A DNA stretch of 64,000 nucleotides from Anaerovoracaceae bacterium (GTDB lineage Bacteria > Bacillota > Clostridia > Peptostreptococcales > Anaerovoracaceae). Under the pieces are notes generated by a model. The model saw only the letters and a list, made by a program, of their open reading frames with translations, was not told the DNA's origin and did not search any database. Shown piece after piece: positions 10,623 to 13,496 of the stretch (position 1 is the stretch's first letter; each line of letters opens with the position of its first letter). Location: positions 1,716-65,715 of the forward strand of contig CAVIGM010000003.1 of NCBI GenBank assembly GCA_963642455.1, in the 5' to 3' direction. The translations under genes and the position numbers were made by a program.

Positions 10623-11324
10623 TTAATATCTGCTATAGTCTGTGTCGCCGTTCAGTACCTCGTGCCTAATCGAACTCATCTCCTCATCGACCTTGGCAAG
10701 GTTAGCGGCACACTGCTTAAGTCTGCTAACTGTTTCGTCTGATAATTCGCCCTTATTCTTGTATCTGAGCTCGTGCTCAAGGCAGGCCCATGTATCCATT
10801 GCGACGCTTCTGAATTGAAGCTCCACAGGTACCATCGCCTTGCGATTTACAAGATATACGGGCAGTGCGACGACGACGTGAAGACTTCTATATCCGCTAT
10901 CTTTTGGCTTCTTGCAATAATCCTTGATTCTTATAAGCTCAACATCTGATTGCTTAAGAAGAAGTCCCGACATAGTATATAGGTCCTCTTCATAGTTGCA
11001 AATAACTCTGATTCCAGCGATATCATATACTTCCTTAAGAACCTGGTCGAGATTGTTGATTGGGTCCTCGATTCCATATCGTACAGCCTTCTCAATCATG
11101 CTGTCGAAAGTCTTAAGCCTCTCTTGGAAATGATGTATAGGCATATATGAATGCGTCTTCTCGAAATCATCTGACAGGACCTCAAGCTTGGTCGAAAGCT
11201 CCTTGAGAGCCGAGCCATAGAGCAGGCTTATATTGTCTATCGCCTCCTGCAGCTCTTCATCGGTGCCTTTATACTGAGGCATCTTATCTCTAATCCTGTC
11301 TGCATGGTAATATCTAAATGACAT
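10623..11324 (-). CDS. Small alarmone synthetase (RelQ/RelP-type GTP pyrophosphokinase, synthetase-only)
   Basis: The RelA/SpoT synthetase core is present (DIAGIRVICNY...GYRSLHVVV...ELQFRSVAMDTWA). There is no hydrolase or TGS domain. It ends 14 nt upstream of valS. Confidence 0.85.
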   Translation of the reverse strand: MSFRYYHADRIRDKMPQYKGTDEELQEAIDNISLLYGSALKELSTKLEVLSDDFEKTHSYMPIHHFQERLKTFDSMIEKAVRYGIEDPINNLDQVLKEVYDIAGIRVICNYEEDLYTMSGLLLKQSDVELIRIKDYCKKPKDSGYRSLHVVVALPVYLVNRKAMVPVELQFRSVAMDTWACLEHELRYKNKGELSDETVSRLKQCAANLAKVDEEMSSIRHEVLNGDTDYSRY

Positions 11325-11364: not shown

Positions 11365-12660
11365 TTATATCATATCAAGAGCACTCTTCGCTAATTTATC
11401 GGCCAATTCATTGTACTTATTTCCTGCATGCGCCTTGACCTTCACGAACTTAATTGTCATTTTCTTTCTTGCCTCGGCAACATATTCCTTATACGATCTT
11501 GTCATCTCTAAATTCGCCTTCCAAAGGTCGTCTCCCCACTTGCCTACGCCCTCGTAGTCGTGGTAAATGGTCAGAGCATCTATGCCTTTTCTTAAGCAAT
11601 AATCTATCGCAAGCCTTGCTCCCATAATCTCGCCTGCAACATTTCTAAGCTGTGCCTGATTGTCGTCATAGGCCTGCGAGAGCTCAATTGTCACATCTCC
11701 ATTGATAATAACCGCAGCACCTGCATATCGCCCGTCTGCTACATTATAGCTTCCGTCAACATAGGCCTTGATGCCCGGCTCAGAGAGTTCGTTAACCGCT
11801 GACCAGCCCATATAGCATAGCGCCTCTTCAGGATCTACGAAGCTCTTATATTCAGCGCCCTTGAATCCGTCGACGCTTCTCTTGCAGCTTTCCCATGTAT
11901 CGAAGATTCCTATTTCTCTGCCCTTGCGAACCGCATAGACCTTGCTTGCTTTTGTCTTAGCTGCTGCCATATCGCCCATCCTCTCGGCTTTTCTCGCCTC
12001 TTCCTCTGCTTTGAATTTATGCAAAAAACTTTTTCTATGTATCGGAGTCTGCCCGAGCCTACGAAGGCCCTCGTAGTGCGCAGCTGTTCCGTATCCCTTG
12101 TTGCTTGCAAAATCATATCCTGGATATTTCTCGTCCATCAGGCTCATAAAATTATCCCTTGCGACCTTTGCGACAATTGAAGCCGCAGCAATCGAAAGGC
12201 ATTTCTCATCGCCTTTGATAATAGATTCTTGCGGAATGTCTATGTCGAGCTTGACTGCGTCTATAAGAAGCTGGTCTATTGATTCTCCTGCGGGAAGTCC
12301 GGCATTGGCATTTATGATTGCTCGTATCATCGCATTTCGAGTTGCATTAAGAATATTAAGCTCGTCGATTTCGTCATTATCTGCGATTCCTATACCTACG
12401 GTAATCGCCCGCTCGCGAATAAGAATGTCAAGCTCTTCTCTTTTCTTGGCCGATAACTTCTTAGAATCGTCGACGCCAAGAACATCGAAATCAGCAGGAA
12501 GAACTACAACGGCGGCATACACAGGTCCTGCAAGAGGGCCTCTTCCAACCTCGTCTATTCCTGCAATATATTTATGGCCGCGGGCTCTAAGCTCATCTTC
12601 GTGAGATTTCATCTCTATAAGCTTGCTTGCCTGCTTTTCTAATCTTTCCTGCTTGGTCAT
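11365..12660 (-). CDS. rnhB: Ribonuclease HII fused to a hybrid-binding domain and an RNase HI-type domain
   Basis: The N-terminal half has RNase HII motifs (DEVGRGPLAGPV, DSKKL, ASIVAKVARD, HRKSF). Then comes a linker and an HBD (KVYAVRKGREIGIFDTWESCKRSVDGFKGAEYKSF). The C-terminal part has a DEDD RNase HI fold (AYVDGSY, AGEIMGA, IYHDYEG, NELADKLAK). Confidence 0.85.
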   Translation of the reverse strand: MTKQERLEKQASKLIEMKSHEDELRARGHKYIAGIDEVGRGPLAGPVYAAVVVLPADFDVLGVDDSKKLSAKKREELDILIRERAITVGIGIADNDEIDELNILNATRNAMIRAIINANAGLPAGESIDQLLIDAVKLDIDIPQESIIKGDEKCLSIAAASIVAKVARDNFMSLMDEKYPGYDFASNKGYGTAAHYEGLRRLGQTPIHRKSFLHKFKAEEEARKAERMGDMAAAKTKASKVYAVRKGREIGIFDTWESCKRSVDGFKGAEYKSFVDPEEALCYMGWSAVNELSEPGIKAYVDGSYNVADGRYAGAAVIINGDVTIELSQAYDDNQAQLRNVAGEIMGARLAIDYCLRKGIDALTIYHDYEGVGKWGDDLWKANLEMTRSYKEYVAEARKKMTIKFVKVKAHAGNKYNELADKLAKSALDMI

Positions 12661-13496
12661 GGCCTCTCCAATGTAATCTTGCCTATCTTGCCGCCTCTGA
12701 ATTCGTCAAGAACAATTCTTCCTGTTCTCTCATAATCTATTCTCTTGCCCGACATTATGAAGCCTCTCTTGAGAGCGATTGCGTCCATATTGTCTATGGT
12801 CTCTTCTTTGATGCCGTCAAGCTTGTATCTGTCAATTAGGTTCTGCGGATATTCCTTCTCGAGTAGCTTGATAAGCTCGAAGGCAAGGTCCTGCACACCG
12901 AGTATATCGTCCTTAATGCTTCCGCAGAAAGCAAGCTTCAAGCCGACATTTCTATCTTCGAACTTAGGCCACAGAATTCCCGGGGTATCAAGAAGCTGCA
13001 TGCCGTTTTGCAAAGTAACCCACTGCTTGCCAGTGGTAACTCCGGGCCTGTCGCCTGTCCTTGTGCTTTTGCGACCTATCAATCTATTTATAAGAGAGGA
13101 TTTGCCGACATTCGGAACGCCAACTATCATGAGCCTAAGAGGTCGCTCGAAGGACTTAGCGGCATTTCGCCTATCCTGCTCTTTCTCGAGAAGTCTATAA
13201 AGTTCCTTGATGTTCTCGCCGGTCTGGGCATTAAGCGCAACAACACGGCTTCCGTCCTCGCTTAGCTTCTTCTTCCATTGTTCCGTAGCTGCATCATCGG
13301 CAAGGTCGCATTTGCCAAGCACAATGATTCTCCTTTTGCCCTGAATAATCTGGTCGATAATAGGGTTGCGGCTCGAAATAGGAATACGGCTATCGACTAT
13401 CTCGATAACTACATCTACAGCCTTAAGGTTGTCCTGTATAAGCTCCCTGGTCTTCTTCATGTGACCGGGATACCAGTTGATATGCTCTAAAGCCAT
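12657..13496 (-). CDS. rbgA: Ribosome biogenesis GTPase A (YlqF/RbgA)
   Basis: It is a circularly permuted GTPase, with KCDL before GVPNVGKSS and DTPG. It has a 4-nt ATGA overlap with rnhB, matching the canonical ylqF-rnhB synteny. Confidence 0.9.
   Translation of the reverse strand: MALEHINWYPGHMKKTRELIQDNLKAVDVVIEIVDSRIPISSRNPIIDQIIQGKRRIIVLGKCDLADDAATEQWKKKLSEDGSRVVALNAQTGENIKELYRLLEKEQDRRNAAKSFERPLRLMIVGVPNVGKSSLINRLIGRKSTRTGDRPGVTTGKQWVTLQNGMQLLDTPGILWPKFEDRNVGLKLAFCGSIKDDILGVQDLAFELIKLLEKEYPQNLIDRYKLDGIKEETIDNMDAIALKRGFIMSGKRIDYERTGRIVLDEFRGGKIGKITLERP

What the first reader, a model, noticed from the sequence alone, without database searches (positions are those of the whole stretch)
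11365..12660. One polypeptide combining RNase HII, a hybrid-binding domain and an RNase HI domain
The 431-aa product of the canonical rbgA-rnhB locus has three parts:
- A complete RNase HII (DEVGRG, DSKKL, ASIVAKVARD, ending with HRKSF at about aa 212).
- A Lys/Ala/Glu-rich linker, then a hybrid-binding domain of the viroplasmin/RNase H1 type (KVYAVRKGREIGIFDTWESCKRSVDGFKGAEYKSF).
- A type-1 RNase H catalytic domain with all DEDD positions (AYVDGSY, AGEIMGA, YHDYEG, NELADKLAK).

Type 1 and type 2 RNases H are normally separate enzymes with different substrate preferences: RNA runs and R-loops versus single embedded rNMPs. A covalent fusion would tether both activities to one hybrid-binding module.

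There is no stop codon or frameshift between the halves in this sequence.
Basis: seen in the sequence. Interest (0 to 1): 0.6.

Follow-up and report, generated by a model that had tools for sequence, protein, structure and literature searches.

The report
Natural RNase HII–RNase HI fusion enzyme
In one small group of Mogibacterium-like anaerobes, the two enzymes that remove RNA from DNA (RNase HII and a hybrid-binding RNase HI) are joined in a single gene that is the cell's only RNase H; the fusion is real and conserved, was not described in the papers I could search, and is built from well-known parts.

Summary
Window 11365-12660, minus strand, is one 431-aa ORF. It holds RNase HII (aa 33-213), a hybrid-binding domain (HBD, aa 240-280) and a type-1 RNase H domain (aa 298-427). 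All three score above Pfam's cut-offs.

- **Active sites:** every catalytic and substrate-sensing residue is invariant in 19 fused homologues (58-100% identity).
- **Structure:** the predicted model shows three folded domains on floppy linkers.
- **Not an artefact:** 23 of 24 genomes of the genus, about 6 further genera of the family and the cultured Mogibacterium timidum ATCC 33093 carry it in one frame.
- **Narrow spread:** among 1.84 billion representative proteins, only one 50%-identity cluster in the best 150 has this architecture.
- **Origin:** two neighbouring genes joined. Relatives show rbgA-rnhB-[11 nt]-HBD-rnhA. Most fused genes still carry the downstream gene's Shine-Dalgarno site and start codon in frame in the linker.
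- **Role:** it is the only RNase H gene in this 1.3-Mb genome. In this lineage the HBD-type RNase HI replaced the canonical rnhA that the rest of the family keeps.

Cooperation between the two nucleases on primers and R-loops is inferred, not shown. A second product from the internal start is possible. No paper I searched describes the fusion, and databases call it "ribonuclease HII".

The parts
11365..12660 (-). Whole fused gene rnhB::HBD-rnhA, 431 aa plus stop
   Evidence: ORF list. It has three Pfam domains and is the only PF00075, PF01351 and PF01693 match in the genome.
12571..12660 (-). N-terminal helix (aa 1-30), typical of RNase HII in Bacillota. The start codon overlaps the rbgA stop.
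   Evidence: The AF2 model has a helix at aa 3-26. NF000594 covers aa 3-212.
12022..12564 (-). RNase HII catalytic domain (aa 33-213). D36, E37, D134 and D151 are the catalytic carboxylates, G39-R40-G41 is the 2'-OH sensor and Y190 is the junction-sensing tyrosine.
   Evidence: Pfam PF01351 scores 133 bits. The NF000594 equivalog scores 280 bits against a cut-off of 243. The residues align to T. maritima RNase H2, and their roles are described in PMC3025331. Foldseek gives TMt 0.80 to E. coli RNase HII 7uwe_C.
11944..12021 (-). Linker 1 (aa 214-239), rich in Lys, Ala and Glu, variable in length and sequence between homologues, and of low model confidence
   Evidence: Alignment A1; pLDDT is below 50 at aa 203-211 and 227-238.
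11968..11985 (-). Relic ribosome-binding site and start codon of the former downstream gene, in frame: GAGAGGA (11979-11985), 8 nt, then ATG of M231 (11968-11970)
   Evidence: Junction DNA. The same feature occurs in 10 of the 11 fused loci that keep a start-like codon, against a 13% background. The unfused G147 and G098 genes start AAGGAG...ATG GCA AAA AAG.
11821..11943 (-). Hybrid-binding domain (aa 240-280) with Y242, W256, Y271 and K272 conserved
   Evidence: Pfam PF01693 scores 60.6 bits. It aligns to the yeast (1qhk) and human (3bsu) HBDs. The residues are invariant or nearly invariant in A1.
11770..11820 (-). Linker 2 (aa 281-297), variable in length
   Evidence: Alignment A1; pLDDT is below 50 at aa 287-294.
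11380..11769 (-). Type-1 RNase H catalytic domain (aa 298-427) with D302, E344, D368, H411 and D421, and no basic protrusion
   Evidence: Pfam PF00075 scores 43.6 bits. The best PDB sequence match is 2kq2, E 4e-18. The residues are invariant in A1. Foldseek gives TMt 0.85 to 4e19, 0.80 to 3aly and 0.78 to 3hst. Only two helices lie between strands 4 and 5.
12657..13496 (-). rbgA (ylqF) ribosome-biogenesis GTPase, the upstream gene of the operon, translationally overlapping the fusion gene
   Evidence: ORF. Pfam matches MMR_HSR1 and RsgA_GTPase. The gene order is conserved in all relatives examined.
10623..11324 (-). RelQ-like small alarmone synthetase, a conserved downstream neighbour (context only, not part of the fusion)
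   Evidence: Pfam PF04607 scores 102 bits. It lies downstream of the fusion or rnhB gene in 10 loci of the clade.

Best explanation
This is a real, lineage-specific gene fusion, rnhB::HBD-rnhA. [quoted passage not shown]

Shown here:
- The fusion exists.
- It is conserved in a sub-clade of a Mogibacterium-like family.
- Both catalytic centres and the HBD contact residues are invariant.
- It is the only RNase H gene of any type in this 1.3-Mb genome.
- The HBD-type RNase HI displaced the canonical rnhA that the rest of the family keeps.
- It sits exactly where relatives have two adjacent genes, rnhB then HBD-rnhA, and the downstream gene's ribosome-binding site and start codon survive in frame inside the linker.

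Inferred:
- The fusion arose when the rnhB stop codon and the short spacer were lost or shifted into frame.
- The HBD anchors the protein on stretches of RNA/DNA hybrid such as Okazaki primers and R-loops.
- The RNase HI domain lacks a basic protrusion, so it probably depends on the HBD, and it cuts inside the RNA run.
- The RNase HII domain cuts 5' of the last ribonucleotide at the RNA-DNA junction, which type-1 enzymes leave behind. It also nicks at single embedded rNMPs to start ribonucleotide excision repair.
- Pol I, whose 5'-3' exonuclease domain is present in the genome, finishes the job.
- The fusion guarantees 1:1 expression and co-localisation of the two complementary activities.
For: - **Domains:** profile matches.
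- **Active sites:** the invariant residues are D36, E37, GRG, D134, D151 and Y190 (RNase HII), Y242, W256, K272 and F274 (HBD), and D302, E344, D368, H411 and D421 (RNase HI), in 19 fused proteins of 58-100% identity. They map onto T. maritima RNase H2 and the human and yeast HBDs.
- **Fold:**
- **Sole RNase H in the genome:**
- **Family pattern:** RNase HIII was found in 0 of 151 family genomes. 146 of 151 have a type-1 RNase H, nearly always a single one. About 130 have the canonical form; the fused and HBD-type genomes lack it.
- **Spread:** the fusion is in 23 of 24 genomes of the genus and about 6 other genera, and in M. timidum ATCC 33093.
- **Unfused neighbours:** G147 and G098.
- **Trees:** the RbgA+RNase HII tree and the HBD-RNase HI module tree are congruent.
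- **Relic start:** SD site plus start codon in the linker.
- **Pol I:** the 5'-3' exonuclease domain is present.
- **Replacement model:** the idea that HBD-RNase HI replaces other RNase HI genes comes from Kochiwa 2007 (PMC1950709).
Against: - No enzyme assay exists for any member, and the closest solved relative of the C-terminal domain (2kq2) is only annotated 'RNase H-related'.
- The model's pTM of 0.47 and its floppy linkers give no sign of a fixed contact between domains, so cooperation in cis is conjecture.
- G147 nests among the fused genomes yet has two separate genes, so the fused state is not obligatory.
- The conserved internal SD and ATG suggest that some or much of the RNase HI may be made as a free protein.
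Confidence: 0.8

Rival explanations
1. The gene yields two products. Besides, or largely instead of, the 48-kDa fusion, translation starts at the retained internal SD and ATG (M231 in the window) and gives a free HBD-RNase HI of about 22 kDa. In that case the locus works much like the ancestral two-gene operon. This is not exclusive of the best explanation.
For: - Ten of the 11 fused loci that keep an in-frame ATG or GTG 3-12 codons before the HBD have an SD-like motif at -15 to -7, against 13% of all codon positions.
- The Met is retained although the rest of the linker is hypervariable.
- The motif copies the true RBS and start of the unfused G147 and G098 genes.
- G147's split state shows that the two halves can work apart.
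Against: - G087 and G134 have lost the internal Met and SD, and G090 keeps a start codon without an SD, yet all three keep the fusion. In those genomes the RNase HI can only act as part of the fusion.
- The linker is rich in Glu and Lys codons, which are purine-rich, and the loci are related, so the naive P value overstates the case.
- There are no expression data.
Confidence: 0.35
2. The fusion is neutral. A stop codon was lost between two adjacent, co-transcribed genes and the loss was tolerated. The two nucleases act independently and the covalent link brings no functional gain.
For: - The linkers are flexible and variable in length, and the model's pTM is low.
- Apparent reversion to two genes in G147.
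- Most of the family and the class manage with separate genes.
- RNase HI fuses with many unrelated partners.
Against: - The fused frame has persisted across several genera that have diverged to about 58% identity, with only one split seen among 15 clade members.
- The two activities are biochemically complementary on the same substrate, the RNA-DNA junction of primers (established knowledge; PMC3025331, PMC1950709).
- In the mycobacterial RNase HII-RSD fusion RelZ, the domains are reported not to work in isolation (PMC7591505).
Confidence: 0.4
3. The C-terminal RNase H-like domain is catalytically dead (as reported for B. subtilis YpdQ) and serves only as an extra nucleic-acid-binding module for RNase HII.
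For: - The score against the canonical rnhA equivalog is weak (PRK00203, 24.5 bits against a cut-off of 160).
- The best PDB relative is only labelled 'RNase H-related protein'.
- Kochiwa 2007 notes that B. subtilis RNase HI, which lacks an HBD, is inactive.
Against: - D302, E344, D368, D421 and H411 are all invariant.
- HBD-bearing RNases HI, such as those of B. halodurans and Shewanella, are reported active (PMC1950709).
- It is the only type-1 RNase H in the genome, in a family where 146 of 151 genomes keep one and none has RNase HIII.
- The fold matches protrusion-less type-1 RNases H (4e19, 3aly, 3hst). Their activity is from my memory, except for the weak activity of the Halobacterium and S. 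tokodaii enzymes noted in PMC1950709.
Confidence: 0.05
4. The single ORF is an assembly or sequencing artefact that hides a stop or frameshift between two genes.
For: The genome is a 71-contig draft, and raw reads could not be inspected.
Against: - The identical protein occurs on 3 contigs, and the best 120 protein clusters (grouped at 90% identity) all share the architecture.
- It is in one frame in 23 of 24 genomes of the genus, in other genera, in complete chromosomes (G043, G162) and in the isolate M. timidum ATCC 33093.
Confidence: 0.01

Closest known systems
Bacterial RNase HII (RnhB), e.g. T. maritima RNase H2 (3o3g), E. coli RnhB (7uwe_C) and S. aureus RNase HII (5y9p)
   Same: The N-terminal 213 aa is a full orthologue. 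It passes the NF000594 equivalog cut-off. It has the same four carboxylates, the GRG motif and the junction tyrosine. The fold matches at TMt 0.78-0.80. It sits in the same rplS-rbgA-rnhB position.
   Different: It carries about 220 extra C-terminal residues holding an HBD and a second nuclease. The known RnhB enzymes listed here have a single catalytic domain.
HBD-bearing bacterial RNase HI (B. halodurans RNase H1, T. maritima and Shewanella RNase HI; 'dsRHbd' group B' of Kochiwa 2007) and eukaryotic RNase H1
   Same: The C-terminal 196 aa has the same HBD-linker-RNase H layout. The HBD aromatic and lysine residues are conserved. The catalytic domain has DEDD plus His and no basic protrusion, as reported for B. 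halodurans. As in Kochiwa's model, it replaces the canonical RNase HI and never coexists with RNase HIII.
   Different: Here the module is not a free protein but the C-terminal half of RNase HII. It forms its own clade together with the neighbouring-gene versions G147 and G098.
RelZ / MS_RHII-RSD of Mycobacterium smegmatis (RNase HII fused to a (p)ppGpp synthetase)
   Same: It is a natural bifunctional RNase HII fusion linked to R-loop handling (PMC7591505). In the present clade a RelQ-like synthetase gene is the conserved downstream neighbour of the fusion.
   Different: The partner fused here is RNase HI plus an HBD, not the alarmone synthetase, which remains a separate gene.
Rv2228c / MSMEG_4305 (RnhC): RNase HI fused to a CobC-type acid phosphatase; also SCO2299
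   Same: It is a bifunctional protein containing a protrusion-less type-1 RNase H. The Rv2228c RNase H domain (3hst) matches the C-terminal fold at TMt 0.78.
   Different: Its partner domain is a phosphatase, not a second RNase H, and it has no HBD.
RNase HIII (RnhC of Bacillus)
   Same: It is conceptually similar: a type-2 fold given RNase HI-like hybrid-cleaving ability by adding a substrate-binding domain (PMC3597702).
   Different: RNase HIII has one active site, a TBP-like N-domain and no junction tyrosine. The present protein scores 21 bits against TIGR00716 (cut-off 161) and gains RNase HI-type activity by adding a whole second nuclease.

Membership tests
RNase HII (type 2, bacterial RnhB) | Four active-site carboxylates (T. 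maritima D18, E19, D107, D124) | tested here: met
   D36, E37, D134 and D151 align to them and are invariant in 19 homologues. PMC3025331 states that the active site is made of absolutely conserved carboxylates; the T. maritima residue numbers are from my memory and fit the alignment offsets.
RNase HII (type 2, bacterial RnhB) | GRG 2'-OH-sensing motif and the junction-recognising tyrosine (T. maritima Y163), which RNase HIII lacks | tested here: met
   G39-R40-G41 and Y190 align to GRG and Y163. Their roles are described in PMC3025331. Both are invariant.
RNase HII (type 2, bacterial RnhB) | Curated equivalog model score above its cut-off | tested here: met
   NF000594 scores 280 bits against a cut-off of 243, and NF000595 scores 220 against 167.
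RNase HII (type 2, bacterial RnhB) | Fold | tested here: met
   Foldseek gives 7uwe_C TMt 0.80, 5y9p 0.78 and 3o3g 0.70, with E down to 2e-18.
RNase HII (type 2, bacterial RnhB) | Cleaves 5' of a single rNMP embedded in duplex DNA | not testable with these tools
   This needs an enzyme assay.
Hybrid-binding domain (PF01693, RNase H1 N-terminal / Cauli_VI) | Profile match above the gathering cut-off, and a three-strand, two-helix fold | tested here: met
   PF01693 scores 60.6 bits against a cut-off of 21. The model has strands at aa 241-246, 251-253 and 270-274 and helices at 256-263 and 277-283, at pLDDT about 85.
Hybrid-binding domain (PF01693, RNase H1 N-terminal / Cauli_VI) | Conserved nucleic-acid contact residues (human Y29, W43, F58, K59, K60; residue roles from my memory of Nowotny 2008) | tested here: met
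   Y242, W256, Y271 and K272 align to Y29, W43, F58 and K59. The K60 equivalent is Ser273. Y242, W256, K272 and F274 are invariant, and Y271 is kept in at least 90% of sequences.
Type-1 RNase H (PF00075) | DEDD catalytic carboxylates plus the His of the E. coli H124 position | tested here: met
   D302, E344, D368, D421 and H411 are invariant. The first and last Asp and the His align to the corresponding positions in 3h08, 1g15 and 2kq2.
Type-1 RNase H (PF00075) | RNase H fold | tested here: met
   PF00075 scores 43.6 bits against a cut-off of 25.8. Foldseek gives 4e19 TMt 0.85 (rmsd 2.2), 3aly 0.80 and 3hst 0.78.
Canonical E. coli-type RnhA (NCBIfam PRK00203 equivalog) | Equivalog score above its cut-off, and a basic protrusion (helix C) | tested here: not met
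   PRK00203 scores 24.5 bits against a cut-off of 160. Only two helices lie between strands 4 and 5 in the model. The domain belongs to the protrusion-less, HBD-dependent subgroup and is not an orthologue of E. coli RnhA. Relatives have the canonical form, at about 100-120 bits, instead.
Type-1 RNase H (PF00075) | Cleaves the RNA of RNA/DNA hybrids of 4 or more nt | not testable with these tools
   This needs an enzyme assay.
RNase HIII | TBP-like N-domain plus a type-2 catalytic domain without the junction Tyr; TIGR00716 above its cut-off | tested here: not met
   TIGR00716 scores 21 bits against a cut-off of 161. Tyr190 is present. RNase HIII is above its cut-off in 0 of 151 family genomes.
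RelZ-type RNase HII-(p)ppGpp synthetase fusion | RelA_SpoT synthetase domain in the same polypeptide as RNase HII | tested here: not met
   The RelA_SpoT domain lies in the separate downstream ORF 10623-11324, after a 40-nt gap.

The most novel reading that the evidence does not exclude
The fusion is an obligate in-cis 'primer and R-loop eraser'. The central HBD docks on the hybrid, and the tethered RNase HI and RNase HII act in succession on the same molecule: RNase HI degrades the RNA run, then RNase HII cuts the RNA-DNA junction. This would give complete RNA removal that the separate enzymes achieve less efficiently. In addition, the retained internal start would make the locus a programmed two-product gene that sets the ratio of fused enzyme to free RNase HI, possibly coordinated with the adjacent alarmone synthetase during replication stress.
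Probability: 0.2. Interest if true: 0.65.

Novelty: new variant of a known kind. Interest (0 to 1): 0.45.

Why it matters
Type-1 and type-2 RNases H are treated as separate enzymes with complementary substrates, and how they divide the work on Okazaki primers, R-loops and embedded ribonucleotides is still debated.

- **A natural experiment:** here both are joined around one hybrid-binding domain, in organisms where the fusion is the only RNase H. The fused state, the adjacent-gene state (G147) and the separated state (G098, with the fhs gene between rnhB and HBD-rnhA) all exist among close relatives. That allows a direct test of whether physical coupling of the two activities matters.
- **It can be tested at the bench:** a cultured strain, Mogibacterium timidum ATCC 33093, carries it.
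- **Gene evolution:** it is a clean, datable example of gene fusion by stop-codon loss in which the downstream gene's ribosome-binding site and start codon are fossilised, and perhaps still used, inside the linker.
- **Practical uses:** the protein could serve as a single-protein reagent for removing all RNA from DNA. Current annotation ("ribonuclease HII") hides the second activity, which would mislead gene-content surveys into scoring these genomes as lacking RNase HI.

Tried and rejected
2. **A possible 'RNase HII + HBD only' architecture.** Ruminococcaceae KHP2 and Saccharofermentans (L073, L074) matched query residues 4-287. In L073, the one I inspected, this was a tblastn over-extension past the stop of an ordinary 236-aa rnhB; L074 gave the same match.
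3. **Candidates for independent fusions among the 50%-identity representatives** (P0124, P0197, P0231, P0131, P0122, P0183, P0187, P0123, P0154). None has RNase HII together with RNase HI. They are multi-HBD RNases HI, RNase HII-UPF0102 fusions, a doubled RNase HII match or DJ-1-HBD-RNase H.
4. **Long open frames holding the HBD-RNase HI module in the class-wide sample.** Of the six I fetched, the five scanned (G526, G468, G491, G210, G286) and G451 contain no RNase HII. G336, G321 and four frames of 317-334 aa were not fetched.
5. **RNase HIII as the missing partner in unfused relatives.** It was above its cut-off in 0 of 151 genomes; they use a canonical RNase HI instead.
6. **Literature.** Five full-text searches and targeted reading of Kochiwa 2007, a 2022 RNase H review, a 2026 RNase HII review and the TBP-domain paper turned up no mention of an RNase HII-RNase HI fusion. 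Absence from this library is not proof of absence, because subscription journals are not covered.
7. **A single clean fusion event.** The trees do not fully support it. G147, which is unfused, nests inside the fused set, so either one fusion plus one fission or several fusions are needed. Several standalone-length representatives also nest among the fused modules. Those may be real fissions or truncated gene calls; I did not resolve this.
Full report
**1. Observation**

Window 11365-12660 contains a single 431-aa ORF on the minus strand. The plus-strand reading of the same interval is full of stops. Its ATG overlaps the stop of the upstream rbgA gene (12657-13496). rplS and a xerC/D-type recombinase gene lie further upstream, and a RelA_SpoT-domain small alarmone synthetase gene (10623-11324) lies 40 nt downstream.

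Pfam finds three domains, all above their gathering cut-offs:

| Domain | Residues | Bits |
|---|---|---|
| RNase_HII | 33-213 | 133 |
| RNase_H | 298-427 | 43.6 |

- NCBIfam's RNase HII equivalog NF000594 is passed, at 280 bits against a cut-off of 243.
- The RNase HIII model and the E. coli-type RnhA model are far below their cut-offs.

**2. Are both nucleases intact?**

I aligned 19 fused homologues of 58-100% identity. The invariant residues include:

- **RNase HII:** D36, E37, G39-R40-G41, D134, D151, Y190.
- **HBD:** Y242, W256, K272, F274.
- **RNase HI domain:** D302, E344, D368, H411, D421.

An HMMER alignment to T. maritima RNase H2 maps D36, E37, D134 and D151 onto the four catalytic carboxylates. 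It maps GRG and Y190 onto the 2'-OH sensor and the tyrosine that recognises the RNA-DNA junction (residue roles from PMC3025331). That tyrosine is what distinguishes RNase HII from RNase HIII.

The HBD aligns with the yeast and human HBDs and keeps the aromatic and lysine positions.

An AlphaFold2 model built from the 19-sequence alignment has mean pLDDT 81.
- It shows three well-folded domains.
- The linkers are of low confidence (aa 203-238 and 287-294).
- pTM is 0.47, which indicates beads on a string rather than a fixed assembly.

Foldseek matches both halves to solved structures.
- The N-terminal half matches bacterial RNase HII: E. coli 7uwe_C at TMt 0.80 and S. aureus 5y9p at 0.78.
- The C-terminal domain matches type-1 RNases H: Halobacterium 4e19 at TMt 0.85 and rmsd 2.2 Å, S. 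tokodaii 3aly at 0.80, and the Rv2228c N-domain 3hst at 0.78.

The model has only two helices between strands 4 and 5, so it has no basic protrusion. Kochiwa et al. describe this layout for B. halodurans RNase HI, where the HBD is proposed to compensate for the missing protrusion (PMC1950709).

**3. Is the fusion real, and how widespread is it?**

- The best 120 protein clusters (grouped at 90% identity) in a 5.8-billion-protein collection, at 61-100% identity and 400-470 aa, all carry the same three Pfam domains.
- Sources name them 'ribonuclease HII' (NCBI; Mogibacterium sp. and Candidatus Crickella) or 'ribonuclease HII/viroplasmin and RNaseH domain-containing protein' (JGI).
- In whole genomes, 23 of 24 species of the window's genus have the full-length protein in one open frame. 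The one exception is a genome that is 71% complete.
- In a sample of 150 genomes from about 121 genera of the family, the fusion appears in only about 6 further genera: G043 and G162, G087, G090, G128, G134 and G160. All the others have a standalone RNase HII of about 210-290 aa.
- HMMER read all 1.84 billion 50%-identity representatives. Among the best 150, only one full-length representative (P0092) and one fragment have the architecture.
- In a class-wide sample of 399 genomes from about 217 genera, the HBD-RNase HI module is common (95 genomes). Apart from the window's own genome, it sits in frames of about 200-260 aa. None of the long frames I fetched and scanned contains RNase HII; a few long frames were not fetched.
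- A named-genome scan shows that the cultured type strain Mogibacterium timidum ATCC 33093 carries a 438-aa version next to rbgA.

Very divergent independent fusions, scoring below about 170 bits in total, would have escaped.

**4. Origin**

| Genome | Gene order |
|---|---|
| G147 (unfused) | rplS-rbgA-rnhB (227 aa)-TAG-11 nt-HBD-RNase HI (218 aa)-folD |
| G098 | rbgA-rnhB-fhs-HBD-RNase HI-folD |
| G043 (fused) | rbgA-fusion-folD-SAS |
| Window (fused) | rbgA-fusion-SAS |

- **Species-proxy tree.** A maximum-likelihood tree of concatenated RbgA and RNase HII places all 13 fused genomes plus G098 and G147 in one clade, with support 97/92. G147 nests inside the fused set, with support 97/87.
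- **Module tree.** The HBD-RNase HI modules of the fused genes cluster with those of G147 and G098 (94/91). They sit apart from the other standalone HBD-RNase HI genes of the family.

The simplest history has three steps:
1. An HBD-RNase HI gene settled next to rnhB.
2. The two genes fused.
3. At least one lineage split them again. Alternatively, fusion happened more than once.

**5. A fossil start site in the linker**

- Standalone HBD-RNase HI proteins begin MAKK(Y/V)YAV, preceded by AAGGAG.
- Eleven of the 13 fused loci keep an in-frame ATG or GTG 3-12 codons before the HBD.
- In 10 of those 11, an SD-like motif lies at -15 to -7, against 13% of all codon positions in the same genes. The loci are related, so the naive P of about 1e-8 is overstated.
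- In the window the feature is GAGAGGA-N8-ATG, at M231.
- This supports an origin by loss of the stop codon and spacer. It also raises a second possibility: that a free HBD-RNase HI of about 22 kDa is still made by internal initiation.
- G087 and G134 have lost the internal Met, so in those genomes only the fusion can supply RNase HI.

**6. Cellular role**

- The fused gene is the only match to PF00075, PF01351 and PF01693 in this 1.32-Mb genome, which is 96.7% complete.
- Across the family, RNase HIII is above its cut-off in 0 of 151 genomes.
- 146 of 151 genomes have a type-1 RNase H, almost always a single one. About 130 have a canonical, high-scoring form (about 90-120 bits). The fused genomes and the genomes with a separate HBD-type gene have only the HBD type (31-54 bits). 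Only G080 has both.
- This is the replacement pattern that Kochiwa et al. proposed for HBD-bearing RNase HI (PMC1950709). It implies that the module is the cell's working type-1 RNase H.
- Pol I with its 5'-3' exonuclease domain is present.

**7. Most likely mechanism (inferred)**

1. The HBD docks the protein on RNA/DNA hybrid.
2. The RNase HI domain cuts within the RNA run.
3. The RNase HII domain cuts at the RNA-DNA junction and at single rNMPs.
4. Pol I completes the removal.

The fusion enforces equal amounts and co-localisation of two complementary activities. Whether it brings any kinetic benefit is untested, and a neutral fusion remains a serious rival (about 0.4).

**8. Comparison and novelty**

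- Each part is a textbook domain. The N-terminal half meets all the membership features of RnhB that could be tested here.
- The C-terminal half belongs to the HBD-bearing, protrusion-less type-1 subgroup and is not an orthologue of E. coli RnhA.
- Bifunctional RNase H fusions are already known: RelZ (RNase HII with a (p)ppGpp synthetase; PMC7591505) and Rv2228c/RnhC (RNase HI with a phosphatase).
- I found no report of type 1 and type 2 joined in one protein. I ran five full-text searches and read the main comparative and review papers for this point.
- An earlier first-stage note from this scan describes the same architecture (439 aa) in another genome.

I rate it a new variant of a known kind, of moderate interest. 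It is a tidy natural experiment and an annotation gap rather than a new principle.

**9. Limits**

- There are no expression or activity data.
- The trees rest on 200-500 columns.
- The taxon names of several metagenome-assembled genomes are unreliable.

Noticed in passing
window 10623-11324 (-), and loci L005, L006, L010, L012, L013, L015, L037, L056, L057, L059: A RelQ-like small alarmone synthetase (PF04607, 102 bits) lies immediately downstream of the fusion gene. It is a conserved neighbour, either directly or after folD, across the clade. This echoes M. smegmatis RelZ, in which RNase HII is fused to a (p)ppGpp synthetase and is linked to R-loop stress.
   Followed up: partly
family-wide, (for example G061:C9:41010-41423 against G000:C3:13095-13484): In about 150 genomes of the family, the canonical RNase HI (about 90-120 bits) and the HBD-type RNase HI (31-54 bits) are almost perfectly exclusive of each other. 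Only G080 holds both, and no genome has RNase HIII. This is a clean large-sample confirmation of Kochiwa's replacement model.
   Followed up: partly
P0131, P0183, P0187: RNase HII fused at its C-terminus to a UPF0102 (YraN-like, PD-(D/E)XK-type) nuclease domain, in proteins of about 376-391 aa. This is another recurrent rnhB fusion, apparently with its usual downstream neighbour.
   Followed up: no
L112:1213-2199 (+); L108:1121-2101 (+); L109:438-1640 (+); P0123; P0231: Other RNase HI fusions in Clostridia: HBD-RNase HI-RnlA_toxin-like domain, HBD-RNase HI-cytidine/dCMP deaminase, short-chain dehydrogenase-RNase HI, DJ-1/PfpI-HBD-RNase H, and RNases HI with up to six tandem HBDs.
   Followed up: no
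L056 (CAVAIH010000010.1) and L059 (CABTXQ010000016.1): The metagenome-assembled genomes labelled 'Sphaerochaetaceae bacterium' (92% identical fusion protein, with the same SAS neighbour) and 'uncultured Ileibacterium sp.' carry this Mogibacterium-type locus. The taxon labels look wrong, or the bins are mixed.
   Followed up: no
L010 2655-2725 (G147): In the unfused relative, rnhB and HBD-rnhA are in different reading frames, 11 nt apart (TAG AAGGAGAAGTA ATG). The split differs from the fused state by an indel as well as a stop. Together with its nested tree position, this suggests fission made easy by the retained internal RBS.
   Followed up: partly
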